Origin: Eledone cirrhosa
Lineage: Eukaryota
Length of the DNA: 64,000 nucleotides
NCBI GenBank assembly: GCA_964016885.1
Contig: OZ024740.1
Coordinates: forward strand, 76,694,001-76,758,000
Direction of reading: 5' to 3'
Numbering within the stretch: position 1 is the first letter of the stretch; each line of letters begins with the position of its first letter. The notes below the pieces were generated by a model. It was not told where the DNA came from. It did not search any database and worked only from the letters and a program-made list of their open reading frames with translations. The position numbers and the translations under genes are program-made. Positions 6,488 to 54,613 of the stretch are shown here, in pieces.

Positions 6488-6538
<51 letters not shown>
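6488..6538 (+). repeat. (AAT)n microsatellite spacer
   Basis: Perfect AAT run between the Tx1-type 5' end and the Dong 5' junction. Confidence 0.97.
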
Positions 6539-6540
<2 letters not shown>

Positions 6541-8933: not shown

Positions 8934-8963
8934 GTAATAACAATAATAATAATAATAATAATA

Positions 8964-9063
8964 ATAATTGTTTCTACATTAGGCACAAGGCCAGCAATTA
9001 CCCAGTGTATTACTGGTACTTTATTTTATCGACCCCGTAAGGATGAAAGGCAAAGTTAACCTC
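8964..9063 (-). mobile_element. 5'-truncated tRNA-derived SINE inside the (AAT)n tract
   Basis: Matches the 3' half of the SINE at 34844-35036 and 53683-54613; flanked by AAT runs (8935-8968, 9066-9131). Confidence 0.88.
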
Positions 9064-9065
9064 TC

Positions 9066-9133
<68 letters not shown>

Positions 9134-9395
9134 TTTCTTTATTAACCACAAGGGTTTACATAAAGTAGACATTAAGGACAGTGCAGGACAATGCAGGACG
9201 GTACAAATGGGCATTTCTGCGTGTAAAAAAAAACAAAAACAGAGGATGTAACAAAAATAACAATGAAAATAACAATGAAAAATTCCCCAATAGGGGGGAG
9301 ACTTCGGAGGGACATTTGTGGAGAAAGCCCAGTAAAAAGCCACAATGACCCTGACCACCAAGGCAAGTGCCCTCTCCCAGTTTTCCACCTTTAGT

Positions 9396-12300
9396 TTACA
9401 GATATATACTCAGAGTCGGCCCATTCACTCGGGCTATTCTTGCTTCTCTCACCCATCTTTCAACAAAATGCTGGGAAGAGAGCACTTCCTTCTCTACTCT
9501 GATTTTCCTTTTCAAATGAAATTTGAAAAAGTCAATCAGAGCATCACCGAAGAGGTAAGTGCTCGTCTTCAGCCCTTTCAAACGTGTCCACCATACTATC
9601 TCTTTCGCCATGGCCACCAGACAGATAAAAACTGCCTGCCCTTCCCGGCTAAATGAGGAGGGCGGGGCAATCCTCACGATAGACTCAGATGATAGCTGGA
9701 TCCGTCCTAAACGCGACAGCAGGTGTTCGACATAAACCCACAAGTCAGCAATTTTCGGACACTGGACGAGTGCGTGCAGGACGGTTTCGTCGCCCTGCGC
9801 GCATCTCGGACATGCCCGGCTGACGGCACCTCCATGCCTGTAGAGTTTATCCCGAACTGGCAAGGCTCCTCGGTAGCACTGCCAGGCCAGAGATTTCTGG
9901 AAGTTGTCCATAGGCCCTGGCCCGAAAGTTCTTCCGAAGAGATTGGCTAGTTGATTTTCGTCGACGCCTAGAGTTTCCCCAAGTACGTCGTCGCTCTTCC
10001 CCTCCACTAATCCTCTATAGAACGCCGAGGTGGAGTTTCCACCGATCACATTGCCCGATTGGTCGAGGGCTGTGAGCGCCTGAAGACATTCCAGTCTCCA
10101 GGCGCTCCCTCTCGGTCTTCGCTTGACCCAGGACTGCAGCTCCGTCAAGGAAACGAGCTGGGGAAAAACGCGTCTAGCAAACGGCGACCACACCTGATCA
10201 CCGTCGAGGAAGAGGTGGAGATGTCGTAGCCTGAGCGCGTGCCTGCGCATCATCAGCCACGGCATGCCCAGCCCTCCACGTAGCGGGTGTTGACAACAGA
10301 TGGACCGCCTGACCATCGGAGCACGTCCCTTCCACAAAAAGCGAAAGAGCAAACGCTCCAGCGCAGTCAGGCGAGGCTTAGGACAAGGTACGACGGTTAG
10401 GCGGTAGCAGATGACAGACGCGATGTACGCGTTAGCCACCTCCGCTCGACCTTTCAGGGATAGCTTCCTCTCCGCCCATTTCTGGGTGAGAGAAGCCACC
10501 CTGCTCGTCACCTCGTCCCAGTTTTTGTCCGTCTGGAGGTCCGGACCGAACCAGACCCCTAGCAATTTAACCGGTCCGTCCGTCCAGCGCCCGACGACGC
10601 TGTTGGACGGCATGGACCTGCCTCTCCAGGTGCCGAGCTGCAGGCCCACTGACTTTTCCTGGTTGATCATTGCTCCTGTCACCGCTTCGTATTCTCTTAG
10701 TGTAGTGCCGATCGCCTCGATGTGTTTGGCGTTCGACACCACTACGGTGACATCGTCCGCATATGCTGACACGGATCTTCCGCATCCTAGTTCGCGCGGG
10801 ACTCCCCTCAACGTCTCCAGTTTGTGCAGTAATGGCTCGAGCGTCAATACGTACAAGAGGGACGAGAGGGGACATCCTTGGCGGACCGAGCGCATGATGT
10901 TGAACGGTTCCGACAGGTGACCGTTCACTCTCACCACAGAGCAGATGTCGCTGTGCATGGCAGCGATCCAGCCTCTGAAGACGGGCCCAAAGCCAGCCGC
11001 CCTCAGGACTGCCGCTAGGTAACGATGGTCGACCCTATCGAAAGCTTTCGACTGATCTAAATTGATCAAGGACCCACCCGTGCCAGGTTCCCTAGCTACC
11101 CTCTCTACGATGTATCGCATGAGGTGGAGGTTGTCGTGGATGGATCTGTCGGGAATGGCGCATGTCTGCGCCTCTCCCACCAGACCACCAACGACAAGCG
11201 CCAACCTCTTTGCTAGCACCTTGGCCAAAATCTTAAACTCTGTGTTTAGCAGAGTTATGGGCCGGAAATTTTCTATGTTATCCCCCTTGTTCGGATCCTT
11301 TCTCAGCAGTGCCACCGCTCCTCGGCTCACAGAACTGGGAATTCTCCCGTTCTGTTGCCAGTTGCAGTAGACGTCCGCCAAGAGGCCTCCGAACAAGTCT
11401 GGCATCTGTACGTAAAGTTCATAGGGCAGACCATCCAAACCAGGCGATTTACCCCTTGTGCAGCCAGTCATTGCCTCCCTTACTTCAGCGGCTGTTATCG
11501 GCTTTTCGCAACACTTCGCCTCAGTGGCCGAGAGCCGCGGCAGTCCGTCGAGGTAGACACTAAAGTCCATCCCTCTACCCGGCCCACCGCTGCCCCCGAA
11601 CAGCTGAGCGAAGTTGCGCTGAAAAGCTTCACACATTTGCCCGGGATCGAGTAGCATGCGCCCGTCGTGGTCCACCAAAGACCGGATCGTGGCTTTGTTG
11701 CCACGACGCGCCTCCGCCACTCGGGCCCATTGAACGGCTTTCGTCCCCTCGTGTCTGAGAGCACGCACCCTTGCTCTGACAACGCAGCCTTCGTGCTTTG
11801 CATTGAAGAATTGGTCAAGGGCCAATTTCGCCGCAAGCACGTCGGTCGCAATGCCTTTGCTAAGCGCCTCGTCTAATTTTCTAACTAGTTCTCCCTCTGC
11901 TCTATTTTTCTCTATTGCTAAAGCCTTACTAAATCTAATCGATTCTATTCTAATCGCTCTTTTCAGAGCAAACCACCACTTGTTGTTGACGATGGCCCCC
12001 GTCAACGCCCGCTTAACTAGTTCGCTAATCCGGTCTCTGTAGGCCTTGCGCGCTGGTAAGGACGCGTTTAGCTTCCAGTAGCCGGGTCCTCGTCTATGAA
12101 GCCTATCTAAGTCAAGCACACAGATCACGAATTTGTGGTCCGTGTAGCTGACTATCTTGAATTGTGGACAGCCTATGCTAGACCTATCTATTTCCCTACA
12201 AAATACTCTATCTAGATATGATCTGGATGACCCTATGCGGTTTGTCCAAGTCCACATTGGCACATTCGGGAAATCCAATCGGTACCTGTCAGACAGTTCA

Positions 12301-12815
12301 AAACGCCTGAGCAGGTTGGTGAGGCTCTTGCACCCTCCACCCCTATCCGCTAATCCCACACAGTCCCAGCGTGCATCTAAGATCCCGTTCCAGTCGCCCA
12401 CTAACACTAAAGAGCGCGACGTTCCAAGAAAGGTCTCCAGACGCCGGAAGAAATCAGGCCGCCCTGCTCCTGTCGGGGCATAGACGGCCACTAGCCTGAA
12501 AGCTTGCCCGTCTCCGCTGGTCACGTCCAGCACCACCAGCTTACCCTCTGGGTCCAGGAAGATGGCCCGTATGGCGAGATCCAAACCTCTCCGAAAAAGT
12601 ACAGCAACTCCTCCACCGGATCCAGGACGGCTGGGAGATGCGTACACATCGTAGCCGCCGAAGATCGGTGCGAAGGCCCGTGCTTCGGAGATTCTGGTCT
12701 CGCTGATGGCCACTACATCTATGTTTAGTGACCTGAGGTCGTTGAGCAGGTGACCCTGCTTCCATGACGACCCCAAGCCACGCGCATTTATGCTGCCTAT
12801 TCTGAGTGAGGTCAT
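9396..12815 (-). CDS. ORF2: APE endonuclease + reverse transcriptase + C-terminal Cys/His motif, 1139 aa
   Basis: APE motifs VVAISET, GGVAVLF, VYAP, LVGDWN, YLDRVF, TDHK. RT motifs KSPGLDG, FRPITLLN, LDQSKAFDRVDH, VRQGCPLS, AYADD. L1/Tx1-like LSLKGRAEVAN and GGLGMP; CPRCAQGDETVLHALVQC. Confidence 0.96.
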   Translation of the reverse strand: MTSLRIGSINARGLGSSWKQGHLLNDLRSLNIDVVAISETRISEARAFAPIFGGYDVYASPSRPGSGGGVAVLFRRGLDLAIRAIFLDPEGKLVVLDVTSGDGQAFRLVAVYAPTGAGRPDFFRRLETFLGTSRSLVLVGDWNGILDARWDCVGLADRGGGCKSLTNLLRRFELSDRYRLDFPNVPMWTWTNRIGSSRSYLDRVFCREIDRSSIGCPQFKIVSYTDHKFVICVLDLDRLHRRGPGYWKLNASLPARKAYRDRISELVKRALTGAIVNNKWWFALKRAIRIESIRFSKALAIEKNRAEGELVRKLDEALSKGIATDVLAAKLALDQFFNAKHEGCVVRARVRALRHEGTKAVQWARVAEARRGNKATIRSLVDHDGRMLLDPGQMCEAFQRNFAQLFGGSGGPGRGMDFSVYLDGLPRLSATEAKCCEKPITAAEVREAMTGCTRGKSPGLDGLPYELYVQMPDLFGGLLADVYCNWQQNGRIPSSVSRGAVALLRKDPNKGDNIENFRPITLLNTEFKILAKVLAKRLALVVGGLVGEAQTCAIPDRSIHDNLHLMRYIVERVAREPGTGGSLINLDQSKAFDRVDHRYLAAVLRAAGFGPVFRGWIAAMHSDICSVVRVNGHLSEPFNIMRSVRQGCPLSSLLYVLTLEPLLHKLETLRGVPRELGCGRSVSAYADDVTVVVSNAKHIEAIGTTLREYEAVTGAMINQEKSVGLQLGTWRGRSMPSNSVVGRWTDGPVKLLGVWFGPDLQTDKNWDEVTSRVASLTQKWAERKLSLKGRAEVANAYIASVICYRLTVVPCPKPRLTALERLLFRFLWKGRAPMVRRSICCQHPLRGGLGMPWLMMRRHALRLRHLHLFLDGDQVWSPFARRVFPQLVSLTELQSWVKRRPRGSAWRLECLQALTALDQSGNVIGGNSTSAFYRGLVEGKSDDVLGETLGVDENQLANLFGRTFGPGPMDNFQKSLAWQCYRGALPVRDKLYRHGGAVSRACPRCAQGDETVLHALVQCPKIADLWVYVEHLLSRLGRIQLSSESIVRIAPPSSFSREGQAVFICLVAMAKEIVWWTRLKGLKTSTYLFGDALIDFFKFHLKRKIRVEKEVLSSQHFVERWVREARIARVNGPTLSIYL

Positions 12816-12850
12816 GTTTAAAATAGAGTGGAAAAGATGGGAAAGACCAC

Positions 12851-14947
12851 TTACCGTACTTTTGGTAGAGGAGGGATGGTTTTTACATCCCTTTTCACTT
12901 GATCGTCTGGTGAAGGGACCGTTGAATCGTCCCTTCGGCTGGTCGTCGGCTCTTCTAAGAGAATGTCTGAGTATACTCTTCGATTGATGGTTCCTCCTAG
13001 GTCCCTGAAATCACCAACTGCGTTGGGGAATTTCGTTTTAATATTTGTGTATTGTTTCTGTGCTATTTTTAGCAGTCTTATGTTAGTTGGCGTTTTGATT
13101 GGTGCTGGTATTATGTAGTCCTGTTGTGAAATGTCTGTGTGTTCAATTATGTAAGTCATTAGTTTCTTGTTGTGTGTATTTATTGCCGTGCATTTGTTTT
13201 TCTGGGGGTGGGGTGTGGTTCTGCTATTTTCTTGTCGTTGTTGCTGGGTGTGTGTGTTTTGTTGTTGTGTTTGCGATGTTGGTGCTTGTGGTGGTGGTGT
13301 TGAAGGTGTTGTTGGCGGTGGGGTTGTCGCCGGTGGTGATGGTGGCGCTAGTGTGGGTGGTGATGGTGTTGGTGTTGTTGCTGCTGTGGGTCTCTTTGCA
13401 GTAGACTTTACCCTTTTCTCATTTCTTTCCTCCCTTTTCAAAGGCGACGATGCGCTGCTTCTGCGTTTGTGCCTTCTTACGACCTTTTGCCATCTCTCTC
13501 CCACCTCACACTCCATGTCTGATTCTGTGAGGTCGGGGAGGGGTACCAACTCCACTCTTTCACTTGTTGTTGTTGGTGATGTTTGCACTGGAGTCTCTGT
13601 TGCAGCTGCATTTGGTATTGCTGTTGTTGTTGTTAGTATTTCCACTGCTGCTGCTGTTTTTGATTTCCGTGGAGTGGGTATGGGTGCCACGGGCCTATCG
13701 TTCCTGGTTGCCGCTTGTCCTGTTGCTGGTAGCCGTGGAGCCGGATTCGGAAGGAGGGGGGTTTTCTCCTTTCTCAGGGTCTTCTCGTTGCAGAAGGCCC
13801 TGAGGTGAGTCTTCGATCCACAGCGAAAGCATTTCGGGCGTTTGCCCTCAACACTTATGGGCAGTTGAGTGCCGTTATCGAAGTCTATCACATCCGGGAT
13901 AACTTCGATGCACTCCTGGTTGGTTTGGATTAGCATCTCAATGGAGGAGCCGACCCAATCTTCTCTTACTTTTTTCTGTACTTGCAGTACAGTTGTTTTG
14001 TCCTCGATTCCGACGAGGACAGACGCGGCCAGCCAAGAAGGGGTCATTCCGGGGGGGACGTGGGTCAGTTTGACCCTCACAATTTTTTGCCCACAGTAGG
14101 AGGGCACCAACACCATTTCCTCGCTCCTTAGGGTCACTACTGATTGGGCCTTTGCCTCCTGGGGTGTGGCAAAAAGTACGTCTACGGTGGCATATTTTTT
14201 GCCTCGGGTGATGTGCGTTTTCCGCTGCCACACAGACCCCAAGGCTTTTTGTATTTGGGCCTCTGTGGCTCTTTCCACCCTACGGGATTTTGTACTTACT
14301 GTACGGTACGTGACCGTACAGTGCTCTTGGGTTTCGAAAAAATTTTTCGCTGCCTTGCAGATTGCTCGGTGTCCGTTCTTTGTCACCATCTTCTTCGCTT
14401 CCTCTAATTCCTCATTTGTTATGAGGATTGTTTCCAAGTTTTTCGCAATACCTGCAAATGAGATTGGTTTTTCTCTGCTGTTGTTGTTGTCGTCAGAGCT
14501 GCTGGTACTTTTGTTGTTGCTGCAGGTACTACGACTACTGCCTCCGCCGCTGTTGCTGTGGTTGTTGTTGGTGTTGCTGCTGCTAATGCTGTTGTTGTTT
14601 ATGCTGCTGGTGATGCTGTTGCGGCTGCTACTGTTGTTTTCATTGTCACTGTTGCTGTTGTTATTACGGCTGCTACTGCTATTATTCCTGACGTCAGACG
14701 AATGAACTGGGTTTTCGTATTTCCCGCACACCTGTTTCGTCGCTGTCGTCGTCGTCGTGGAGAAACCTTGCACGCTTTGCACGAGACTTTTCTTTTCTTT
14801 CGTCGCTTGCGAAAGAGAAGGGAGGGAGAGAGACACATTTAAAGAAGGGAGGGAGAGAGACAATCTTCTCTCTGCTGTAGTGATGATTGAGGAAGAAGAA
14901 GACGGAATGAGTGGGAGTGACGTATGAAATTTCTTTTTCGTAGCCAT
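12851..14947 (-). CDS. ORF1: gag-like nucleic-acid-binding protein with CCHC zinc knuckle (698 aa from first ATG)
   Basis: CFRCGSKTHLRAFC = CX2CX4HX4C; Asn/Ser-rich N-terminus and Pro/Thr-rich linker; lies just upstream of ORF2; ATG of MATKK at 14947. Confidence 0.9.
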   Translation of the reverse strand: MATKKKFHTSLPLIPSSSSSIITTAERRLSLSLPSLNVSLSLPSLSQATKEKKSLVQSVQGFSTTTTTATKQVCGKYENPVHSSDVRNNSSSSRNNNSNSDNENNSSSRNSITSSINNNSISSSNTNNNHSNSGGGSSRSTCSNNKSTSSSDDNNNSREKPISFAGIAKNLETILITNEELEEAKKMVTKNGHRAICKAAKNFFETQEHCTVTYRTVSTKSRRVERATEAQIQKALGSVWQRKTHITRGKKYATVDVLFATPQEAKAQSVVTLRSEEMVLVPSYCGQKIVRVKLTHVPPGMTPSWLAASVLVGIEDKTTVLQVQKKVREDWVGSSIEMLIQTNQECIEVIPDVIDFDNGTQLPISVEGKRPKCFRCGSKTHLRAFCNEKTLRKEKTPLLPNPAPRLPATGQAATRNDRPVAPIPTPRKSKTAAAVEILTTTTAIPNAAATETPVQTSPTTTSERVELVPLPDLTESDMECEVGERWQKVVRRHKRRSSASSPLKREERNEKRVKSTAKRPTAATTPTPSPPTLAPPSPPATTPPPTTPSTPPPQAPTSQTQQQNTHTQQQRQENSRTTPHPQKNKCTAINTHNKKLMTYIIEHTDISQQDYIIPAPIKTPTNIRLLKIAQKQYTNIKTKFPNAVGDFRDLGGTINRRVYSDILLEEPTTSRRDDSTVPSPDDQVKRDVKTIPPLPKVR

Positions 14948-15432
14948 GTTTTTTTGTTTAAAATGAAATTTTGGGTACAAAACCCCAATAACTGGTTATT
15001 TAACCCCGAAGGGCCAAACAACGGACAGAAAGACCCCTCTCACGAGGAGGAGGGTGTCTTTATCAACAATTTGGTTCAAGTTTTAAACAATTTACAATTG
15101 TTTTAACGGTTAAAAATTACTATACCTTACAGAGCCGAGCCTCCGTCAACCATGGCATTCAATAATAATAATAATAATGATTTCATTTATTGGCCACAAG
15201 GGCCGACATATAGGGGACAACACAATAGACAGGGACAGTGGGGGTTTACATAGAGATCGAGTAAGTATAAATAACAAAAAAAACAAAATAACAATAAAAA
15301 TACAACAATGAAAGTTCCCCAATAAGAGGGATCACCACCCAGGGTTGACTCAAGCACCCCACCAGTCCTGAGCCACCCGACGCTCCTAGGGCACCCGGGA
15401 AGGGCACCCCTCTCCTTCTCGAATTCACCAGC

Positions 15433-18400
15433 CTACAGGCGCATGATCAGAGTAGGCCCACTCACGCGGGCCATTCTCGCCACATTCACCCACCTTTCAG
15501 TAAATGTACTGGGGGGCAGCACTTCTCTCTCCACCCTCACCTTCCTTTCCAAGTGAAACTTGAAGAAGTTGATGAGGGATTGGCCGAAGAGAAAAGTGTC
15601 TGTCTTCAGTCCTTTCAACCTGGTCCACCATGCAACCTCTTTCGCTACTGCCACCAGGCAGAGGAAAATTGCCTGCCCTTCCTGACCAAAAGAAGGCGGC
15701 GGGTCAATCTTCACTATGGACTCGGACGATAGCCGGATCCGTTCTACACGCGACAATAGCTGTTCGACATAACCCCACAAGTCAGCAATGCACGGACACT
15801 GGACGAGTGCGTGCAGAACGGTTTCGTCGCTCTGCGCGCATCTCGGGCAGGTTCGTCTGACAGCACTTCCGTGCCTGTAGAGTTTATCCCGAACCGGCAG
15901 CGCCCCCCGGTAGCACTGCCAAGCGAGGGATTTCTGGAAGTTATCCATCGTCCCCGGCTCGAAAGTCCTCCGGAACATACTGGTCAGTTCTACTTCGTTG
16001 ACGCCCAGAGCCTCTCCTAGTACGTCATCGCACTTGCCCTCCACTAATCCTCTATAGAAATCTTGAGTGGAAGTTCCACTGACCGCATTGCCCACCTTGC
16101 AGAGTGCAGTGAGCGCCTGGCAACATTCCAGATGCCAGTCGCCCAGTCTCGGTCTCTTCTTGACCCAGGACTGCAGCTCAGTCAAAGAGATGAGCTGCGG
16201 AAAGGCCCGTCTAACAAACGGCGACCACACCTGTTCACCGTTTAGGCAAAATATCTGGAGATGTCGCAGCCTCAGCGCATGTCTGCGCATCATTAGCCAC
16301 GGCATGCCCAGCCCTCCACGAAGAGGGTGCTGGCAGCAGATGGACCGCCTCACCAACGGGACCCGTCCCCTCCACAAAAATTTGAAAAGGAGCCGTTCCA
16401 AATTGGCGAGGCGTGGACGGGGGCAAGGCACGACGGTCAGGCGGTAGTAGATGACGGACGCGATGTACGCGTTCGCCACCTCCGCCCGCCCTTTCAGTGA
16501 TAGCTTTCTCTCAGCCCATTTCTGGGTGAGGTTGGCTATCCTGCTCGTCACCTCGTCCCAATTCTTATCCACCTGGAGGTCTGGTCCGAACCAAACCCCG
16601 AGCAACTTTACCGGTCCGTCTGTCCAGCGCCCAACGACGCTGTTGGACGGCATGGACTTGCCTCTCCAGGTGCCGAGCTGCAAGCCCACCGACTTTTCCG
16701 GGTTAAGTTTTGCTCCCGTCAACCTTTCATATTCCTCCAAATGGGTGCGGATCACCTCGATTTCCGAGGTGTCCGACACCATCACGGTGATGTCGTCCGC
16801 ATAAGCGGACGCAGCCTTTCTACGTCCCGGTTCGAGCGGGATGCCCTGCAACAACTCCAGCTTCCGCAGTAGAGGCTCAAGAGTCAATACGTACAGAAGT
16901 GAGGAGAGAGGGCACCCTTGACGGACCGATCGAGAGATCTGAAACGGTTCCGAGAGGTGGCCATTAACTTTGACCACCGAGCGGATGCCGCTGTACATTG
17001 CAGCGATCCAGCTTCTGAAGACGGGGCCGAAGCCAGCCGCCTCGAGGACAGCCTCCAAGTACCGATGGTCGACCCTATCGAATGCTTTCGATTGATCTAA
17101 ATTGATCAGAGCCCCACCGAAGCCAGGTTTGCACCCAACCCTCTCTATGATGTATCGCATGAGGTGGAGGTTGTCGTGTATGGACCTGGTCGGGATTGCG
17201 CAAGTTTGCGCCTCCCCAACCAAATCTTTGACGACAAGCGCCAACCTTTTCGCTAACACCTTGGCCAAAATCTTAAACTCTGTGTTGAGCAGGGTTATGG
17301 GCCTGAAATTATCTAGTGTGTCCCTCTTGTTCTCGTCTTTCCTTATCAGCGTCACTACGCCACGGCTCACAGAACTGGGAATGCTCCCGTTCTGCTGCCA
17401 GTTGCAGTAGAGCGCTTCGAGGAGATCGGAGAACAAGTCTGGCATATTTACGTAAAGCTCGTAGGGCAGACCATCCAAACCGGGTGACTTGCGACTCGAG
17501 CAGCCGACAAGGGCGTCCTGAATTTCGGCTGATGTTATCGGCTCTTCGCAGCGCTCAGCGTCGGCCGTCGAGAGGCGTGGCAAGCCGTCGAGGTAGGGAC
17601 TGAAGTCCGCCGCCGTCTCCGACTCACCCATCCTCCCGAACAATCGAGCAAAGTGCTGGCGAAAGGCCTCACACATCTGCTTGGAATCGCTCAGTTCGTG
17701 TCCATCTCGATCCGTCAAAGACCGAATTGTGGTTTTATTTCCACGCTGCGTCTCTGCAAAGCGAGCCCATCGGGCAGCTTTGGTTCCCTCGTTCCTCAGA
17801 GCACGCGCCTTAGCTCTGACAATGCAACCTTCGTGTTTCGCATTGAAGAAATGGTCTAGTGCCATTCTCGCCGCTAGCACGTCTGTTGCAATGCCACTAC
17901 AAATAGCCTCGTCTAACTTAGCTATCAGCCCCTCCTCCTTTCTATTTTTCTCTATTGCTACTTCTTTGCTAAATCCTATCGAGGTTGCTCTAATCTCTCT
18001 TTTGAGTGCCCCCCACCACCTGTTGTTGACAACCCCCCCTGTCAACTTTTGCTTAACTAAGTTGTTGACCCGGTCCCTGTAAGCTTTACGTGCCGGAAAC
18101 GACATGTTTAGCTTCCAGTAGCTAGGTCCTAACCTACGTGTCTTATCTAGGTCGACCATACAGATCACAAGCTTGTGATCTGAATAGGCAACCGTTTTAA
18201 AATGTGGACATCCTACACTATTTCTATCTCTTTTCCTAATGAAAATCCTATCTATGTACGATCTAGATGACCCTATGCGATTGGTCCAGGTCCATACTGG
18301 CGCATTAGGGAAATCTAGTCGGTACCTGTCAGACAGTTGAAACTGGCTGATCAGGTACTTGAGGCTTTTGCACCCCCCGCTCCTATCAGATACTCCCACA

Positions 18401-18852
18401 CAATCCCAGCGTGCTTCTAAGATGCCATTCCAATCCCCTATTAACAGTAAAGGGCGAGACGTAAGCAGAAAGTTTTCCAGGCGCCTAAAGAAGTCCGGCC
18501 GACCGGCCCCAGTAGGGGCGTAGACGGCCACCAGTCTAAAGGCACCACCTTCGCTATTGCTCACGTCCAGGACCACCAACTTTCCGTCAGGATCCCGGAA
18601 GATTGACCTTACCTCGAGATCCAGACATTTCCTAAACAGCACAGCCACTCCACCTCCCATTCCCGGCCGACTAACAGATGCAAAGATCTGATAATCGTCG
18701 AAAATCGGCGCCAGTGCGCGTGTGTCGGAAATTCTGGTCTCGCTGATGGCAATTACATCCATTCCTAGTGACCTGAGGTCGTTGAGCAAGTGACCTTGCT
18801 TCCAGGGCGACCCCAGGCCACGAACATTTAAACTTCCTACTCTTATGGCCAT
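15433..18852 (-). CDS. ORF2: APE endonuclease + reverse transcriptase, 1139 aa
   Basis: VIAISET, IGDWN, YIDRIF, SDHK, LDQSKAFDRVDH, VRQGCPLS, AYADD, CPRCAQSDETVLHALVQC; colinear with 9396-12815. Confidence 0.96.
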   Translation of the reverse strand: MAIRVGSLNVRGLGSPWKQGHLLNDLRSLGMDVIAISETRISDTRALAPIFDDYQIFASVSRPGMGGGVAVLFRKCLDLEVRSIFRDPDGKLVVLDVSNSEGGAFRLVAVYAPTGAGRPDFFRRLENFLLTSRPLLLIGDWNGILEARWDCVGVSDRSGGCKSLKYLISQFQLSDRYRLDFPNAPVWTWTNRIGSSRSYIDRIFIRKRDRNSVGCPHFKTVAYSDHKLVICMVDLDKTRRLGPSYWKLNMSFPARKAYRDRVNNLVKQKLTGGVVNNRWWGALKREIRATSIGFSKEVAIEKNRKEEGLIAKLDEAICSGIATDVLAARMALDHFFNAKHEGCIVRAKARALRNEGTKAARWARFAETQRGNKTTIRSLTDRDGHELSDSKQMCEAFRQHFARLFGRMGESETAADFSPYLDGLPRLSTADAERCEEPITSAEIQDALVGCSSRKSPGLDGLPYELYVNMPDLFSDLLEALYCNWQQNGSIPSSVSRGVVTLIRKDENKRDTLDNFRPITLLNTEFKILAKVLAKRLALVVKDLVGEAQTCAIPTRSIHDNLHLMRYIIERVGCKPGFGGALINLDQSKAFDRVDHRYLEAVLEAAGFGPVFRSWIAAMYSGIRSVVKVNGHLSEPFQISRSVRQGCPLSSLLYVLTLEPLLRKLELLQGIPLEPGRRKAASAYADDITVMVSDTSEIEVIRTHLEEYERLTGAKLNPEKSVGLQLGTWRGKSMPSNSVVGRWTDGPVKLLGVWFGPDLQVDKNWDEVTSRIANLTQKWAERKLSLKGRAEVANAYIASVIYYRLTVVPCPRPRLANLERLLFKFLWRGRVPLVRRSICCQHPLRGGLGMPWLMMRRHALRLRHLQIFCLNGEQVWSPFVRRAFPQLISLTELQSWVKKRPRLGDWHLECCQALTALCKVGNAVSGTSTQDFYRGLVEGKCDDVLGEALGVNEVELTSMFRRTFEPGTMDNFQKSLAWQCYRGALPVRDKLYRHGSAVRRTCPRCAQSDETVLHALVQCPCIADLWGYVEQLLSRVERIRLSSESIVKIDPPPSFGQEGQAIFLCLVAVAKEVAWWTRLKGLKTDTFLFGQSLINFFKFHLERKVRVEREVLPPSTFTERWVNVARMARVSGPTLIMRL

Positions 18853-18881
18853 GCTGGCAGGATGAATGGGAGAGGAAAGGT

Positions 18882-20744
18882 TTACTTACCTTCCGGGGTC
18901 TTGTGAAGGTCGGGTGGTTCGACCTCCATGGTTTGTGGGGTTTCTTTTGGGAACCCCTTTAATAGTCTTGACGTGGGTTTTACGTTCGGGGTTCCCACAT
19001 CCCGAGGAAAGCTCTTTCGAATTTCTTTGTATGAAGCGAGCGACATTCGCATCAGAAGCAAATTATCTGGTACGCGAAATGTGCTCGCTTCAAATGTTTC
19101 CCCGTCTTTTTCGATGTTTGTGCTTCGTGCTACATGGGCCATCAATTCCTTGTTGGCCCTTCTGGCAAGCACGAAGTTTTTAATGTTTTGTTGCTCGGGT
19201 TTTATTTGTTCGTGTGATTGTGGTGGTGATAGCTTTGTTAGTGTTGTTTCTATTGTGTCTGCGTTTGTTGTGGGTGGGGTGTCTGTAGTTTCTGATGTTT
19301 GTGTGTCTATTTGTTCTTGTGTCTGTTTAGCTTGTTTGCGTTTGGGGGATTTTGGTGGTTGTGTTGGTGATGCTGTGGGGAAAATGTTTGTGTGGGTGGT
19401 GTGTGTATTTTTTTTTGTGGGGGTGTTTGTGCTTTGTGGATTTCTTTTTTTTTTGTGTTTTGTTTTTTGTATTTTGGGGGACTTTGGTTTTCCCTCATCT
19501 TCACTGCTGGAGGATGAGGGGTCTGTGGCTGTGAGCGTGTTTGTGTCTGAGTGAGTGTTTATGTTCTTGTTCGTGTGTGTATTTTGGGGGGGAGGGGGAA
19601 TGGGAGAGCTTTCCTCGTTTCCCCCCTGGGTGTGCAATTTTGGTGGTTCCATTGTTGACGGTGTTGCTGGTGGTCCTTGTCCCGGCGTCGCCAGCAGTGG
19701 AATCTTTCGACCCCTTGCGCTTTTCGGCAGTTGAGGGCAGAAGGCTCGCAAGTGTGTCGTTTCCCCACAAAGGAAACAATGCGGCCTTTTGCCCTCAGTC
19801 ATTATATGCAACACCCTCCCGTTTTGGAGGCGGATGTGGTCCGGGATTGTTTTTACGTTTTCGGGTCTGATTTGGAGCAGTATCTCCAGATCAACCCCGG
19901 ACCAGTCGTCCCTGGCAGTTCTCGTTGCCTCTACCGGGACTGTATCCGTTCCTTCCACGATTACGCAACCCAGGAGCCACCACATATCAAGTCCTGGTGG
20001 AATCCTGGGAATGCGCACACGTGCTATTCGTTTTCCCATGTGGGAGGGGTACATTATGACCTTGCTGGTTTTGCAAGGGGTCATTGAATGCTTCACAGCG
20101 AGGGCTTCAGACTTGAACAGCACCGAAACGGTGCCGTATTGCCTGCCCCTCTCTATGAAGTCTGTGTCCTCTCTGATGTGTTTCAGTGCGGCTTCTATGT
20201 CAGCTTGGGCGATTATCGCTGCCCTCTTTGTCTCTACTGAGATGCATCTGAAATGCACCGTTCTTTTTTCCACTGCCTCAATGGCTTCTGCCGGGACAGT
20301 TAAGTTTGCCCAGGTCTGCTCTTGATTTATGATTTTCCAGGCCTGGGCCAACTTTTCCTCTCTGTTGGTTAAGTCGATGCTGTAGCATGGTCTCCTTTTA
20401 GCCGCTGCCACAGCAGCGAAAGTGTTCTTGTTGGTGTTGTCACTGTTGTTGTTCTTGTTGGTGTTGCTGCTGCTATTGCTGTTGTTGTTCTCCCCTGTGT
20501 CGTGGTTACCTTCTGTGCTGTTGGCCTTGTTGGTGCTCTCGCTATTACCACCTTCTGCGCTGTTCGGCTTGTTGGTGTTGGTGTTGTCGCTGTTACCACC
20601 TTCCGCGCCGCTCGGCCCGTTGGTGCTGGCACTGTCGCTGCTCACATTCGTGCTGGTGGCGCTCCTCGCCTCACCTCTCCTCTCAACGCTCAAGTCGCCG
20701 TTGCACGACAGCAGACCCGCCTCTAGGGGGCGTGGCTCCGCCAT
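18882..20744 (-). CDS. ORF1: gag-like protein with CCHC zinc knuckle, 620 aa
   Basis: EGKRPHCFLCGETTHLRAFC knuckle shared with family A ORF1; low-complexity N- and C-terminal regions. Confidence 0.9.
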   Translation of the reverse strand: MAEPRPLEAGLLSCNGDLSVERRGEARSATSTNVSSDSASTNGPSGAEGGNSDNTNTNKPNSAEGGNSESTNKANSTEGNHDTGENNNSNSSSNTNKNNNSDNTNKNTFAAVAAAKRRPCYSIDLTNREEKLAQAWKIINQEQTWANLTVPAEAIEAVEKRTVHFRCISVETKRAAIIAQADIEAALKHIREDTDFIERGRQYGTVSVLFKSEALAVKHSMTPCKTSKVIMYPSHMGKRIARVRIPRIPPGLDMWWLLGCVIVEGTDTVPVEATRTARDDWSGVDLEILLQIRPENVKTIPDHIRLQNGRVLHIMTEGKRPHCFLCGETTHLRAFCPQLPKSARGRKIPLLATPGQGPPATPSTMEPPKLHTQGGNEESSPIPPPPQNTHTNKNINTHSDTNTLTATDPSSSSSEDEGKPKSPKIQKTKHKKKRNPQSTNTPTKKNTHTTHTNIFPTASPTQPPKSPKRKQAKQTQEQIDTQTSETTDTPPTTNADTIETTLTKLSPPQSHEQIKPEQQNIKNFVLARRANKELMAHVARSTNIEKDGETFEASTFRVPDNLLLMRMSLASYKEIRKSFPRDVGTPNVKPTSRLLKGFPKETPQTMEVEPPDLHKTPEGK

Positions 20745-21056
20745 GTTTTTTTGAGAAAAAAATTATTATTTTTTTCAAAATAAAGTTCAAATATTTGGGC
20801 CAAAAGGCCCAAATATTATGAGTTATTCCTTCACAGGATACAAATTAATGTCTTATAATGCTTCAGCGGTACAAAAAATAAACAATTCTCTACAATTAAT
20901 CCTCAAAAATTGCTTACTCACGGAGCTTCAAAAAACGTACATCCACTTTCGTCAATAATAATAATAATAATAATAATAGAGAAAGAGAAAAAGTGAAGTT
21001 GGAAAATATATTTTAGGGCCTGTTTTTCTTTTTTTCCTTTTCTTTGATTCGCCCAA

Positions 21057-46921: not shown

Positions 46922-47089
46922 GGGTCGGACACCATGCTTTGACGCATAGAGTTACGGTCCTTGCCATTCTGAGTTCAAATCTCGCTGAGGTGAATTTTGC
47001 CTTTCATCCTTACGGGGTCGATAAAATAAAGTACCAGTAATGCACTGGGTATTTGCTGGCCTTGTGCCAAGAGTAGAAGCAATTATTAT
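46922..47089 (+). mobile_element. tRNA-derived SINE, slightly 5'-truncated
   Basis: Same family as 34844-35036; ends GCCTTGTGCCAAGAGTAGAAGCAATTATTAT. Confidence 0.9.
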
Positions 47090-47305: not shown

Positions 47306-47919
47306 AAATGGGGAGAAGAATACTGCAGGTTGCACATGGATAACATGTTATAAAATGAGTCCCTCGTCAGTGATTTGCCAACGATCATAGATATTTCATT
47401 GCATTAAAAATCATATACCTCACGTTGGTGCAATAATAACTAAATTAAGTTATTAGGACAATTAAAACGCGTAAAGCGAGTGAGACAAGTAAACAACAAA
47501 GAGGAAAGCTAACCGTAGATAGGAAGGGCACAAGCTACATAGTTATTCTGTCAGCATAAGCTGGGTGAATATATGAGCGCGTAGAAAAAAGACCTTTCGA
47601 GATGAATCCAAATGTAAGAAAGAAGGAAATTGTTTTCGTCGCGAACGGAGTGAAGTGAGAAGGGGAGAAACAGTGAGTGAGTGAGTGGAAGTGTGAGGAA
47701 GAGGTCAGTAGAGAGAAAGTGTTAATGACATGACAGAGGGGGCGAAAGAAAGTAAGAGAAACAGAGAGAACGAGGGAGCAGTAAGAGAGAGAGAGAGAAA
47801 AACAGAATCGCAGTTTAGGTAAATATATGTGAAAAAATGGGGAGAAGAATACCGCAGGTTGCACATGGATAACATGTTATAAAATGAGTCCCTCATCAGT
47901 GATTTGCCAACGATCATAG

Positions 47920-47923
<4 letters not shown>
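47301..47923. repeat. About 94-bp direct repeat at 529-bp spacing, bounded by (TA)n
   Basis: tgaaaaaatggggagaagaata...gatcatagatat at 47301-47394 and 47830-47923. Confidence 0.9.
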
Positions 47924-47961
<38 letters not shown>

Positions 47962-48081
47962 TATAGACATAGAATATTCGAAAATATTCTGTATGTTTAT
48001 AATAAACATTTTGAAGACCTAATCGCTATAGAATAGAATACGTCACGTATTACAATTAGATTCTCGATAAAAGCAAGGGAA

Positions 48082-48124
48082 GTAATCTACGCGTTTCATT
48101 CTTGTTAGAATTCATCAGGACTAC
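48082..48124 (-). ncRNA. Type I hammerhead ribozyme, first of 6 on - (others start at 48392, 48702, 49012, 49322, 49632)
   Basis: GTAGTC-CTGATGA-ATTCT aaca AGAAT-GAAAC GC GTA-GATTAC: complete core, stems I and II pair, palindromic helix III ACGCGT, GUA cleavage triplet. Confidence 0.85.
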
Positions 48125-50142
48125 ATATCCAGTGCTTTTATCGAGAATGACACAGCTAGAGACTTATAGAATACTTAGCTGTGTACTGGAACTGGTTTGA
48201 AAGAGCGGTTGCCGGTCCGGCAGAAATTAGAAATTGGAATAAATGCTCTGAAATAGCGATATATATGTGAGTATAGACATAGAATATTCGAAAATATTCT
48301 GTATGTTTATAATAAACATTTTGAAGACCTAATCGCTATAGAATAGAATACGTCACGTATTACAATTAGATTCTCGATAAAAGCAAGGGAAGTAATCTAC
48401 GCGTTTCATTCTTGTTAGAATTCATCAGGACTACATATCCAGTGCTTTTATCGAGAATGACACAGCTAGAGACTTATAGAATACTTAGCTGTGTACTGGA
48501 ACTGGTTTGAAAGAGCGGTTGCCGGTCCGGCAGAAATTAGAAATTGGAATAAATGCTCTGAAATAGCGATATATATGTGAGTATAGACATAGAATATTCG
48601 AAAATATTCTGTATGTTTATAATAAACATTTTGAAGACCTAATCGCTATAGAATAGAATACGTCACGTATTACAATTAGATTCTCGATAAAAGCAAGGGA
48701 AGTAATCTACGCGTTTCATTCTTGTTAGAATTCATCAGGACTACATATCCAGTGCTTTTATCGAGAATGACACAGCTAGAGACTTATAGAATACTTAGCT
48801 GTGTACTGGAACTGGTTTGAAAGAGCGGTTGCCGGTCCGGCAGAAATTAGAAATTGGAATAAATGCTCTGAAATAGCGATATATATGTGAGTATAGACAT
48901 AGAATATTCGAAAATATTCTGTATGTTTATAATAAACATTTTGAAGACCTAATCGCTATAGAATAGAATACGTCACGTATTACAATTAGATTCTCGATAA
49001 AAGCAAGGGAAGTAATCTACGCGTTTCATTCTTGTTAGAATTCATCAGGACTACATATCCAGTGCTTTTATCGAGAATGACACAGCTAGAGACTTATAGA
49101 ATACTTAGCTGTGTACTGGAACTGGTTTGAAAGAGCGGTTGCCGGTCCGGCAGAAATTAGAAATTGGAATAAATGCTCTGAAATAGCGATATATATGTGA
49201 GTATAGACATAGAATATTCGAAAATATTCTGTATGTTTATAATAAACATTTTGAAGACCTAATCGCTATAGAATAGAATACGTCACGTATTACAATTAGA
49301 TTCTCGATAAAAGCAAGGGAAGTAATCTACGCGTTTCATTCTTGTTAGAATTCATCAGGACTACATATCCAGTGCTTTTATCGAGAATGACACAGCTAGA
49401 GACTTATAGAATACTTAGCTGTGTACTGGAACTGGTTTGAAAGAGCGGTTGCCGGTCCGGCAGAAATTAGAAATTGGAATAAATGCTCTGAAATAGCGAT
49501 ATATATGTGAGTATAGACATAGAATATTCGAAAATATTCTGTATGTTTATAATAAACATTTTGAAGACCTAATCGCTATAGAATAGAATACGTCACGTAT
49601 TACAATTAGATTCTCGATAAAAGCAAGGGAAGTAATCTACGCGTTTCATTCTTGTTAGAATTCATCAGGACTACATATCCAGTGCTTTTATCGAGAATGA
49701 CACAGCTAGAGACTTATAGAATACTTAGCTGTGTACTGGAACTGGTTTGAAAGAGCGGTTGCCGGTCCGGCAGAAATTAGAAATTGGAATAAATGCTCTG
49801 AAATAGCGATATATATGTGAGTATAGACATAGAATATTCGAAAATATTCTGTATGTTTATAATAAACATTTTGAAGACCTAATCGCTATAGAATAGAATA
49901 CGTCACGTATTACAATTAGATTCTCGATAAAAGCAAGGGAAGTAATCTACAGGGAAGTAAACATACAGAATATTTTCGAATATTCTATGTCTATACTCAC
50001 ATATATATCGCTATTTCAGAGCATTTATTCCAATTTCTAATTTCTGCCGGACCGGCAACCGCTCTTTCAAACCAGTTCCAGTACACAGCTAAGTATTCTA
50101 TAAGTCTCTAGCTGTGTCATTCTCGATAAAAGCACTGGATAT

Positions 50143-50185
50143 GTAGTCCTGATGAATTCTAACAAGAATGAAACGCGTAGATTAC
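50143..50185 (+). ncRNA. Type I hammerhead ribozyme, first of 5 on + (others start at 50453, 50763, 51072, 51382)
   Basis: gtagtcctgatgaattctaacaagaatgaaacgcgtagattac; stem I is extended by a 16-bp helix attctcgataaaagca / tgcttttatcgagaat. Confidence 0.85.
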
Positions 50186-51577
50186 TTCCCTTGCTTTTAT
50201 CGAGAATCTAATTGTAATACGTGACGTATTCTATTCTATAGCGATTAGGTCTTCAAAATGTTTATTATAAACATACAGAATATTTTCGAATATTCTATGT
50301 CTATACTCACATATATATCGCTATTTCAGAGCATTTATTCCAATTTCTAATTTCTGCCGGACCGGCAACCGCTCTTTCAAACCAGTTCCAGTACACAGCT
50401 AAGTATTCTATAAGTCTCTAGCTGTGTCATTCTCGATAAAAGCACTGGATATGTAGTCCTGATGAATTCTAACAAGAATGAAACGCGTAGATTACTTCCC
50501 TTGCTTTTATCGAGAATCTAATTGTAATACGTGACGTATTCTATTCTATAGCGATTAGGTCTTCAAAATGTTTATTATAAACATACAGAATATTTTCGAA
50601 TATTCTATGTCTATACTCACATATATATCGCTATTTCAGAGCATTTATTCCAATTTCTAATTTCTGCCGGACCGGCAACCGCTCTTTCAAACCAGTTCCA
50701 GTACACAGCTAAGTATTCTATAAGTCTCTAGCTGTGTCATTCTCGATAAAAGCACTGGATATGTAGTCCTGATGAATTCTAACAAGAATGAAACGCGTAG
50801 ATTACTTCCCTTGCTTTTATCGAGAATCTAATTGTAATACGTGACGTATTCTATTCTATAGCGATTAGGTCTTCAAAATGTTTATTATAAACATACAGAA
50901 TATTTTCGAATATTCTATGTCTATACTCACATATATATCGCTATTTCAGAGCATTTATTCCAATTTCTAATTTCTGCCGGACCGCAACCGCTCTTTCAAA
51001 CCAGTTCCAGTACACAGCTAAGTATTCTATAAGTCTCTAGCTGTGTCATTCTCGATAAAAGCACTGGATATGTAGTCCTGATGAATTCTAACAAGAATGA
51101 AACGCGTAGATTACTTCCCTTGCTTTTATCGAGAATCTAATTGTAATACGTGACGTATTCTATTCTATAGCGATTAGGTCTTCAAAATGTTTATTATAAA
51201 CATACAGAATATTTTCGAATATTCTATGTCTATACTCACATATATATCGCTATTTCAGAGCATTTATTCCAATTTCTAATTTCTGCCGGACCGGCAACCG
51301 CTCTTTCAAACCAGTTCCAGTACACAGCTAAGTATTCTATAAGTCTCTAGCTGTGTCATTCTCGATAAAAGCACTGGATATGTAGTCCTGATGAATTCTA
51401 ACAAGAATGAAACGCGTAGATTACTTCCCTTGCTTTTATCGAGAATCTAATTGTAATACGTGACGTATTCTATTCTATAGCGATTAGGTCTTCAAAATGT
51501 TTATTATAAACATACAGAATATTTTCGAATATTCTATGTCTATACTCACATATATATCGCTATTTCAGAGCATTTAT

Positions 51578-51634
<57 letters not shown>

Positions 51635-51750
51635 TATATAATAATAATAATAGTAATAGTAATAAATTTGAAGACTAAAATCCAAAGAAGGCTCGATAAG
51701 GATAAATATATATCAAATATATAAGAACCGTAGAGCAAATATTTATAAAA

Positions 51751-52448
51751 ATAACAGATTAAAGTTTAAGCAAAGAATCGCTGCTTTCACCCTTAACGGG
51801 ATCTTTTGAAACTAACAAAGTCAATCTGTGAACGCAGAAGTGAATATTTCAAAAAACGTTGCAACCAGAGGAAGACAGGAAGACGATACTTTGGTTCGTG
51901 GAAACGTTCCCTGGCAAAGAACGGAAAAAACGAATATAATAGGTGTATGTATTTATTTAATTTCAATTACCTCTGTATTTTATTTACTTTAGTCTTAACT
52001 CTGAAGCCGAGAATCATTCGGTTTCCTAGTTAGAATTTTAGTCTACGACTTCAGTTATACCATTTACGCGGTTTTATCTTTGCGTGCAATTGTTCTCCAC
52101 GCTCCACATATGACGTATTATCTTCGTTTTTTCCGTTCATTGCCAGAGAACGTCTCTATGAACCACCTAATAGAATATTAGTCTACGACTTATTTTATAC
52201 CATAAACGTGGTTTTGTCTTAGCGTGTAATTGTTTTTCACCGCTCCAAATATTGACCTATTATATTCGTTTTTTCCCGTTCTTTGCCAGGGAACGTTTCC
52301 ACAAACCAAAGTATCGTCTTCCTGTCTTCCTCCGGTTGCAACGTTTTTTGAATATTCACTTCTGCGTTCACAGATTGACTTTGTTAGTTTCAGAAGATCC
52401 CCTTAAGGGTGAAAGCAGCGATTCTTTGCTTAAACTTTAATCTGTTAT
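51751..52448. repeat. Inverted repeat with about 195-bp arms (51751-51943, 52255-52448); family copies at 58420-58600 and 58725-58800
   Basis: ataacagattaaagtttaagcaaagaatcgc...gaatataataggt versus acctattatattcg...gcgattctttgcttaaactttaatctgttat; a partial third copy lies in the spacer. Confidence 0.9.
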
Positions 52449-52695
52449 CTTAATAAATATATATATAGTAAAAATTGAACGGGAACAAAATAGAGAGGCA
52501 GTACGAACAAAGGTTTATTAGTTTCACGCTCTTGAGAGTGGAGTGGTGGTGGATATATATATATATTTATACATATATATAAATATATACATAAATATAT
52601 ATATATAAACATACAACATATATATATATATACACATATATATATATACATACATATATATATATATAAATATATATATATATGTATATATATAT

Positions 52696-53455: not shown

Positions 53456-53571
53456 GGGGGGGGGGGGGGGGTATTTATATGTATATACATGGGTGGTGGT
53501 GGTGTTGTGGGTGGTGGTGGTGGTGATTTAGTAGGGGTTACATGAAGAGTTGGCATTCTCGGTGTTTCTAA

Positions 53572-54613
53572 CAAATAATTGTTTCTACGTTTGGCACAAG
53601 GCCAGCAAAAATCCAGTGCATTACTGGTACTTTATTTTATCGACCCCGTAAGGATGAAAGGCAAAGTTAACCTCGTTTCTAACAAATAATTGTTTCTACT
53701 TTAGGCACAAGGCCAGTAATTACCCAGTGCATTACTGGTACTTTATTTTATCGACCCCGTAAGGATGAAAGGCAAAGTTAACCTCGGCGGGATTTGAACT
53801 CAGATCGTAAAGGGACTTAACTATGCTGGAAAGCATGGCGTCCGACCCTCTACCGATACTGCCAATCAAATAATTGTTTCTACTTTAGGCAGAAGGCCAG
53901 CAATTACCCAGTGCATTACTGGTACTTTATTTTATCGACCCCGCAAGGATGAAAGGCAAAGTCAACCTCGGCGGGATTTGAACTCAGATCGTAAAGGGAC
54001 TTAACTATGCTGGAAAGCATGGCGTCCGACCCTCTACCGATACTGCCAATCAAATAATTGTTTCTACTTTAGGCACAAGGCCAGCAATTATCCAGTGCAT
54101 TACTGGTACTTTATTTTATCGACCCCGTAAGGATGAAAGGCAAAGTCAACCTCGGCGGGATTTGAACTCAGATCGTAAATGGACGTAACTATGCTGGAAA
54201 GCATGGCGTCCGACCCTCTACCGATACTGCCAATCAAATAATTGTTTCTACTTTAGGCACAAGGCCAGCAATTATCCAGTGCATTACTGGTACTTTATTT
54301 TATCGACCCCGTAAGGATGAAAGGCAAAGTCAACCTCGGCGGGATTTGAACTCAGATCGTAAAGGGACTTAACTATGCTGGAAAGCATGGCGTCCGACCC
54401 TCTACCGATACTGCCAATCAAATAATTGTTTCTACTTTAGGCACAAGGCCAGCAATTATCCAGTGCATTACTGGTACTTTATTTTATCGACCCCGTAAGG
54501 ATGAAAGGCAAAGTCAACCTCGGCGGGATTTGAACTCAGATCGTAAATGGACGTAACTATGCTGGAAAGCATGGCGTCCGACCCTCTACCGATACTGCCA
54601 ATCCACCGCGCCA
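53572..54613 (-). mobile_element. Head-to-tail tandem array of the tRNA-derived SINE (5 x 184 bp plus one truncated copy)
   Basis: caaataattgtttctac at 53572, 53683, 53867, 54051, 54235, 54419; only the last copy has the full 5' end (ccaccgcgcc on +). Confidence 0.95.

What the first reader, a model, noticed from the sequence alone, without database searches (positions are those of the whole stretch)
49930..49975. Array inversion breakpoint sits at the ribozyme cleavage site
Seen: the forward arm stops at ...agtaatctac (49950). The predicted cut on the ribozyme strand is GUA|GAUUAC, i.e. gtaatc|tac on +, so the arm ends 3 nt past the cut site out of 310 possible positions. A 10-nt re-copy of adjacent sequence follows (agggaagtaa at 49951-49960, equal to 49936-49945) and joins the inverted arm through a taa microhomology. 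Inference: reverse transcription reached the 5' end of a ribozyme-processed RNA, slipped and switched strand/template. This supports an RNA intermediate and in vivo ribozyme activity.
Basis: partly seen in the sequence, partly recalled or inferred. Interest (0 to 1): 0.8.

Follow-up and report, generated by a model that had tools for sequence, protein, structure and literature searches.

The report
Ribozyme repeat inserted from both ends
This is one of more than a thousand insertions of a 310-base repeat with a predicted self-cleaving ribozyme, whose two opposed arrays were likely copied from an RNA circle by a Penelope-type enzyme starting at both ends of a DNA break; the point where the arrays meet is scattered over the whole repeat in other copies, so its closeness to the cut site here is most likely chance.

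Summary
The sequence is as described: the left arm ends at 49950, three bases beyond the predicted hammerhead cut, a 10-nt re-copy follows, and TAA joins the inverted arm. The three extra bases (GUA) lie upstream of the cut, so a cleaved RNA would lack them. Among 228 arm ends at 114 junctions, 6 lie within 3 nt of the cut (5.2 expected) and none on it. Genome-wide, 53 ends fall in the cut window against 40 and 67 in two control windows. The real pattern is at the outer ends. Nearly all insertions sit in (TA)n as two head-to-head arrays, one starting at unit position ~138 and the other at ~164 (27 of 28 unbiased cases). Either arm can be longer, private variants are shared by all units of both arms, and junctions show microhomology or templated inserts. 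This fits a non-LTR retrozyme copied from both ends of a break by a Penelope-type RT, probably on a circular RNA, then end-joined. One other locus (L176) has both arms ending exactly at the cut, a rare trace of a cleaved linear template. The partner enzyme, expression and cleavage are not shown.

The parts
47916..47958 (.). (TA)n target tract, left side
   Evidence: the arm's AUAUAUAU end merges with it
47949..49950 (-). Left arm, about 6.5 units of 310 nt; RNA-3' end at phase 129-138 (tail-less start site A), RNA-5' end at phase 307
49948..49950 (-). GUA upstream of the predicted cut; would be absent from a cleaved RNA 5' end
   Evidence: sequence
49951..49960 (+). Junction insert: 7 nt belonging to neither arm (49951-49957) plus TAA shared with the right arm; together a direct re-copy of 49936-49945
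49958..51583 (+). Right arm, about 5.2 units; RNA-5' end at phase 88, RNA-3' end at phase 164 (start site B); one 1-nt gap near 50984
50143..50185 (+). One copy of the predicted type I hammerhead: stem I, CUGAUGA, stem II, GAAAC-GC-GUA with palindromic helix III, cut after 50179; 11 full copies in the element
   Evidence: (Rfam HH9, E 0.0035, below gathering score)
50119..50207 (+). Predicted 16-bp extension of stem I (50119-50134 with 50192-50207) around the hammerhead
   Evidence: fold
51558..51583 (+). 26-nt 'tail' (phases 139-164) present at this outer end only
51582..51665 (.). (TA)n/(TAA)n target tract, right side

Best explanation
The element is a 310-nt repeat with a predicted hammerhead ribozyme (a non-LTR retrozyme) whose two opposed arrays were likely reverse transcribed from both ends of a cut in a (TA)n tract and then joined in the middle at an arbitrary position, so the junction's closeness to the cut site is likely chance. 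Shown: the architecture, the two fixed outer ends (phases ~138 and ~164, one per arm), the scatter of junctions, microhomology and templated inserts at junctions, and shared variants across both arms. Inferred steps: (1) array transcripts self-cleave through dimeric hammerheads and the monomer is ligated into a circle; (2) a Penelope-like RT/GIY-YIG protein, probably a dimer, cuts both strands of (TA)n; (3) one 3' end starts cDNA at phase 164 and the other at phase ~138, where AUAUAUAU can pair with the target; (4) both roll round the same template for 0.3 to 20 turns; (5) the two cDNA ends are joined by microhomology-mediated end joining of the polymerase-theta type, which here left the 10-nt re-copy.
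For: Junction phases scattered, no excess at the cut. One A end and one B end in 27 of 28 inverted elements chosen without regard to ends (P about 1e-7 against free choice) and in 110 of 114 overall; genome-wide end counts 1,006 (B) and 1,210 (A). Outer ends lie in TA tracts: 108 of 117 A ends, 28 of 30 unselected B ends. Both RNA-3' ends face the target, as target priming requires. Either arm may be longer (51 vs 59). Microhomology of 2 nt or more in 54 of 87 junctions without insert, 18% expected; 27 of 114 have inserts, and 7 of the 17 inserts of 4 nt or more copy flanking sequence beyond shuffles. 14 private variants are fixed in all units of both arms in 13 of 107 elements. 214 of 225 arms cross the cut, 1,065 crossings in all, with 3 sporadic indels near it. 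The genome holds RT plus GIY-YIG elements (938-aa open frame in L230); in 6 of 6 inverted loci of that family one end has a tail and the other has none. A purified Penelope-like protein cuts and extends both strands, starts at two adjacent internal sites that bound the tail, is predicted dimeric and does not need ribozyme cleavage (PMC11167929).
Against: Junction phases are not perfectly even: chi-square P=0.046, Rayleigh P about 0.005 with mean phase 53. A-arm ends within 20 nt of the cut number 25 against 14.8 expected (P=0.006), and within 3 nt 5 against 2.5 (P=0.11); the densest 7-nt windows are at phases 16-19, not 0. No autonomous element with terminal repeats homologous to the unit was found among 45 PLE loci or beside 25 copies of a sister family. 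Three elements switch haplotype inside the insertion (L036, L081, L103), and two carry a variant once in each arm (L073, L087); 18 single-unit variants recur in two or more loci. These allow two templates or linear multimers. Arm lengths are weakly correlated (Spearman 0.24). 4 of 32 unbiased elements have one arm only. Neither the RNA nor cleavage was observed. Polymerase theta is named from the scar pattern alone.
Confidence: 0.75

Rival explanations
1. One reading: RT reached the 5' end of a ribozyme-cleaved RNA at this junction, added a few bases, slipped and switched strand or template.
For: End 3 nt from the cut and a 10-nt re-copy. Four of 228 sampled ends sit at phase 307. L176 shows that ends exactly at the cut occur, and 3 of 44 distinct cut-proximal junctions have both arms in the first turn against 1 of 110 elsewhere (Fisher P=0.07).
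Against: Needs TAC added by chance to match the template. The arm crosses six cuts first. No excess at the cut in sample or genome; 20 of 48 cut-proximal ends are compatible with phase 0 against 22.9 expected; phases 19, 6, 12 and 78 are as frequent as 307. Strand switching onto its own cDNA cannot explain fixed outer ends or either arm being longer.
Confidence: 0.05
2. Same two-ended priming, but on uncleaved linear multimeric transcripts (or two separate RNAs) instead of one circle.
For: Ribozyme cleavage is dispensable in vitro (PMC11167929). Haplotype switches in L036, L081, L103; variants seen once per arm in L073 and L087; 18 recurrent single-unit variants.
Against: Variants are mostly fixed in all units (287 fixed against 9 mixed locus-variant pairs), which needs a one-unit bottleneck somewhere. 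14 private fixed variants span both arms. Junctions do not cluster where a downstream RT would meet the upstream primer (9 vs 7.7 and 4 vs 7.6 expected).
Confidence: 0.15
3. Short inverted Penelope-type insertions were later expanded into arrays by DNA-level slippage or unequal crossing-over, as satellites are.
For: Satellite-type amplification is discussed for retrozymes (bioRxiv 10.64898/2026.07.22.740005). L073 has a variant pair repeated seven units apart.
Against: Units are nearly identical (0.34 private single-unit variants per kb), such variants are rarely duplicated (5 cases), and both arms are expanded at most loci while the outer ends stay intact.
Confidence: 0.04
4. Assembly artefact from a fold-back chimeric read.
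For: No read was seen to span this junction.
Against: Flanks are not mirror images; the arms end at different fixed phases; 114 junctions with their own flanks follow one rule.
Confidence: 0.01

Closest known systems
Metazoan non-LTR retrozymes (PMC7229834; bioRxiv 10.64898/2026.07.22.740005)
   Same: Tandem units of 170-400 nt, each with a type I hammerhead, no protein, PLEs in the same genome; a circular RNA template copied into tandem cDNA is the proposed cycle.
   Different: The passages read describe tandem arrays only. Here the rule is two head-to-head arrays with fixed, unequal outer ends in (TA)n. Expression and circles are not shown here.
EN+ Penelope-like elements (PMC11167929, PMC8557442, PMC3846280, PMC4209133)
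   Same: Inverted 5'-truncated copy, a tail at one end only, (TA)n targets, two adjacent internal RT start sites, hammerhead with short palindromic helix III.
   Different: No RT or endonuclease; tail is 26 nt (30-40 nt quoted for PLEs); both arms are long multimers. PMC3846280 explains head-to-head inversions by self-priming on an antisense template; these data favour priming from both target ends.
LINE-1 twin priming (mechanism recalled; search listing only)
   Same: Both target ends prime cDNA and the two products meet head to head with microhomology.
   Different: No poly(A) end; both primers start at fixed internal sites; the junction is not tied to the second priming site; inversion is the rule (28 of 32), not the exception.
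Polymerase theta-mediated end joining scars (features recalled; search listing only)
   Same: Microhomology of 2-6 nt and inserts copied from nearby sequence.
   Different: The joined ends are inferred to be two cDNAs; RT slippage on the RNA would give similar direct re-copies and is not excluded.

Membership tests
non-LTR retrozyme | tandem unit of about 170-400 nt | tested here: met
   310-nt period, 99% matches
non-LTR retrozyme | type I hammerhead motif in every unit | tested here: met
   core CUGANGA/GAAA/GUA in all 11 full units; variants keep stem I pairing in 18 of 21 listed haplotypes (three carry a 1-nt insertion) and core changes fall on the free N position; helix III forms in a two-copy fold. 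Rfam match is weak: HH9, 23 bits, gathering 52
non-LTR retrozyme | no protein coding | tested here: met
   no open frame of 150 aa or more in 47949-51583
non-LTR retrozyme | expressed as linear and circular RNA | tested here: inconclusive
   no RNA run was available to test; circle inferred from fixed private variants
non-LTR retrozyme | self-cleavage | not testable with these tools
   only a hint: both arms of L176 end exactly at the predicted cut
Penelope-type integration | inverted 5'-truncated copy next to the 5' end | tested here: met
   114 head-to-head junctions; 28 of 32 unbiased elements
Penelope-type integration | tail at one end, bounded by two internal RT start sites | tested here: met
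   ends at ~138 and ~164, one each in 27 of 28
Penelope-type integration | AT-rich or (TA)n targets | tested here: met
   108 of 117 A ends and 28 of 30 unselected B ends
Penelope-type integration | homology to the terminal repeat of an autonomous PLE | tested here: inconclusive
   none among 45 GIY-YIG loci out of 150 scored and 10,596 candidates; matches were to non-coding sister repeats only
Penelope-type integration | target-site duplication or deletion | not testable with these tools
   cannot be read inside (TA)n without empty alleles
LINE-1 twin priming | poly(A)-primed first strand | tested here: not met
   both outer ends are internal unit positions joined to TA tracts
LINE-1 twin priming | inversion point next to the second priming site | tested here: not met
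   9 vs 7.7 and 4 vs 7.6 expected

The most novel reading that the evidence does not exclude
These arrays record the Penelope integration cycle directly: a dimeric RT-endonuclease breaks (TA)n and its two subunits start at two different fixed sites on one circular RNA, one per DNA end, roll round it and are end-joined. One mechanism would then explain the inverted 5' copy, the one-sided tail and the tandem form of Penelope-like elements, and give genomic evidence that ribozyme-made RNA circles are retrotransposition templates, with L176 as the product of a cleaved linear monomer.
Probability: 0.5. Interest if true: 0.75.

Novelty: new member of a known kind. Interest (0 to 1): 0.5.

Why it matters
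How Penelope-like elements make their inverted and tandem insertions is named as an open question in PMC8557442, and the circular template of retrozymes is a hypothesis in PMC4209133 and PMC7229834. This young family, with an estimated 1,900-2,800 near-identical insertions, supplies a strict rule (one start site per target end, same template for both arms) that an existing in vitro assay (PMC11167929) can test directly. The finding as first worded, a breakpoint at the cut site, would not matter: it is a 1-in-22 coincidence.

Tried and rejected
Rfam at gathering threshold: no match in the window. Search for RNA runs: no RNA holder listed; this says nothing about expression. Laying contigs of runs X1-X4 on the junction: no listed piece spans it, and 725 pieces were not shown; no verdict. 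Raw Hi-C reads X21: 0 laid, no test. Search for the partner PLE: a helix-turn-helix family accession recalled from memory is not in the library; GIY-YIG loci gave PLEs with different terminal repeats; the sister family led to no adjoining RT frame that was examined (only frame lengths were listed). RT jumping between cleaved linear monomers: rejected because 1,065 crossings of the cut show 3 sporadic indels nearby. Fold-back on own cDNA: rejected by arm lengths. The excess at phase 308 among cut-proximal ends (18 of 48) was examined: many share TAG-type microhomology with the other arm, and the total compatible with phase 0 is not raised. A 1-nt insertion two bases after the cut, fixed in 6 loci, was considered as a ligation scar and rejected because it is not at the ligation point. 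Earlier findings of the scan: none returned. PMC9977147 passages added nothing on mechanism.

Full report
Observation. The window holds two arrays of a 310-nt unit, 47949-49950 and 49958-51583, in opposite orientation between TA tracts. Each unit carries a type I hammerhead motif: stem I GUAGUC, CUGAUGA, stem II, GAAAC-GC-GUA, then GAUUAC. I number the unit from the first base after the predicted cut (phase 0, e.g. 50180). The ribozyme strand is minus in the left arm and plus in the right arm, so the RNA 5' ends meet at the junction. The left arm's 5' end is at phase 307 and the right arm's at phase 88; seven bases belong to neither, and with the next TAA they repeat 49936-49945. But phases 307-309 are the GUA before the cut, which a cleaved RNA would not carry.

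The ribozyme. Rfam gives nothing at gathering level and a weak HH9 match at 50134-50199 (E 0.0035, 23 bits against 52). Among the hammerhead haplotypes listed, core changes fall on the free position of CUGANGA, and stem I changes keep pairing in 18 of 21 (including a family with GUAAUC/GGUUAC). Many haplotypes have a U-U mismatch at the base of stem II. Helix III (ACGCGU) forms only between two copies in the fold. PMC4209133 (passages read) describes this design: cleavage in multimers, avoided in monomeric circles. Cleavage itself is predicted, not shown.

The family. One exact hammerhead variant occurs 2,733 times. End patterns give 1,006 and 1,210 matches; scaled by their catch rate, about 1,900-2,800 elements. 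I fetched 124 stretches: 31 chosen from unit matches without regard to ends and 93 chosen by the phase-164 end on contig C1. The second set is biased for that end but not for junction phase.

Test of the claim. With the window these gave 114 head-to-head junctions and 228 5' ends. Within 3 nt of the cut lie 6 (5.15 expected); exactly on it, none; 44.5% of 7-nt windows are as full as the cut window. A genome-wide pattern that catches ends in a 5-nt window found 53 at phases 307-1, 40 at 187-191 and 67 at 57-61; the control counts were not inspected locus by locus and all three include some indel variants. I examined 50 of the 53; three were left out because their strings looked like 1-nt indel variants. 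45 were head-to-head junctions, 3 were joined to TA tracts and 2 were variants. Ends by phase were 307:12, 308:18, 309:6, 0:7, 1:5, and 20 of 48 were compatible with phase 0 given microhomology, against 22.9 expected. Against a flat null: ends are mildly uneven (chi-square P=0.046, Rayleigh P about 0.005, mean phase 53), and A arms show a broad excess within 20 nt of the cut (25 vs 14.8). The densest windows are at phases 16-19, inside the predicted 16-bp stem, which may stall RT (inference).

What is regular. The outer (RNA-3') ends fall in two clusters, phases ~126-138 and ~162-169, and join TA tracts. In 27 of 28 unbiased inverted elements, and 110 of 114 overall, one arm ends in each cluster. 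Four of 32 unbiased elements have a single arm. Either arm can be longer (51 vs 59), lengths run from 75 to over 6,000 nt, and the two junction phases are unrelated. Junctions show microhomology of 2 nt or more in 54 of 87 cases without insert (18% expected), and 27 of 114 have inserts; 7 of 17 inserts of 4 nt or more copy flanking sequence beyond shuffles, the window's at P=0.045. The window insert can also be read in two steps (TAC pairs with the other arm and gains AG, then AG slips back and copies GGAAGTAA); this reading is inference. So the re-copy is an ordinary scar of this family.

Template. Fourteen variants private to one of 107 elements are present in all units of both arms, in 13 elements. 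Of locus-variant pairs, 287 are fixed, 9 mixed and 100 single-unit. Arms cross the cut 1,065 times with 3 sporadic indels near it. This points to one monomeric template read repeatedly by both ends, most simply a circle. Against: haplotype switches in L036, L081 and L103, variants once per arm in L073 and L087, and 18 single-unit variants that recur between loci.

A trace of cleavage elsewhere. In L176 (G000:C3:172482940-172485965) both arms are in their first turn and both end exactly at phase 0, with a 5-nt insert. About 0.02 such elements are expected by chance, and under 0.001 with both arms in the first turn. That is what two RTs running off a cleaved linear monomer would leave. Two more junctions (L159, duplicated as L160, and L188) are compatible; 3 of 44 against 1 of 110 has P=0.07. 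It is one clean case, found after the fact, in a rearranged locus.

The enzyme. The genome holds many GIY-YIG elements (150 scored of 10,596 candidates). L230 has a 938-aa open frame with RT and C-terminal GIY-YIG. Its family carries a variant minimal hammerhead, ends in TA tracts, and has one tailed and one tail-less end in 6 of 6 inverted loci in hand. Its terminal repeat is not detectably like the unit, so the partner is not identified. A non-coding sister repeat, 77-82% like phases 59-154, shows the same inverted form.

Mechanism and literature. PMC11167929 (parts 1-2 of 4 read) reports that a Penelope-like protein cuts and extends both strands at AT-rich DNA, starts at two adjacent internal sites that bound the tail, is predicted dimeric, and does not need ribozyme cleavage; it saw no difference in start site between strands, which the strict pairing found here does not yet match. 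PMC8557442 and PMC3846280 (passages) describe the inverted copy, the one-sided tail and (TA)n targets; the second proposes self-priming on an antisense template. PMC7229834 (passages and Discussion) and PMC4209133 propose circular templates; bioRxiv 10.64898/2026.07.22.740005 (part 1 of 5 and passages) derives retrozymes from PLE terminal repeats and has no hit for 'inversion' or 'tail'. Searches showed no paper on head-to-head retrozyme arrays or on pairing of the two start sites with the two target ends; subscription journals are not covered, and no supplement was read (the model figure S9 of PMC7229834 and figure S2 of PMC11167929 may bear on this). LINE-1 twin priming and polymerase-theta scars are from recall plus search listings.

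Verdict. Observation right in letters, coincidence in meaning. The element is a new member of a known kind whose insertion pattern is a good handle on an open mechanism. My odds: junction position is chance 0.9; priming from both target ends 0.85; Penelope-type enzyme 0.85; circular monomer as usual template 0.7; polymerase theta for the join 0.5.

Noticed in passing
L176 (G000:C3:172482940-172485965): Both arms end exactly at the predicted ribozyme cut in their first turn; the junction is then repeated in rearranged form nearby.
   Followed up: partly
runs X4, X5, X14, X16: Runs under 17 other organism codes hold about half or more of the sampled words; X4, X5 and X14 hold the unit as one 340-base contig (closing on itself in X5 and X14). 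Cross-sample contamination, a shared element or an RNA circle cannot be told apart.
   Followed up: partly
L206:2424-2876; L250-L274: Sister hammerhead repeat, 77-82% like phases 59-154 of the unit, with the same inverted tail/no-tail form but no arrays in 25 loci; 1,420 candidates in the genome.
   Followed up: partly
L230:3809-6622 (-), L231, L235, L236, L241, L242: Penelope-like family with a long open frame and a variant minimal hammerhead (UUGAAAA core, palindromic ACCGGU); two 3' ends about 60 nt apart.
   Followed up: partly
window 51640-52460: Another head-to-head repeat insertion in an AT tract, 89-98% like copies at other loci; probably an older Penelope-type family.
   Followed up: partly
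window 1900-20800: Cluster of LINE copies (AP endonuclease, RT, zf-RVT), two with open frames of 1,204 and 1,150 aa, with (AAT)n tracts nearby.
   Followed up: no
window 53564-54603: Five tandem copies of a 184-nt repeat, 98% alike; a related copy lies near 47000; no hammerhead core found by the motif scan.
   Followed up: no
L062, L068, L088, L096, L114, L152: Subfamily with a 1-nt insertion two bases after the cut, fixed in all units; it bulges stem I yet has spread.
   Followed up: no
L236:8990-9205; L100; L240: Further short hammerhead-bearing repeats in TA tracts, some in the same inverted form.
   Followed up: no
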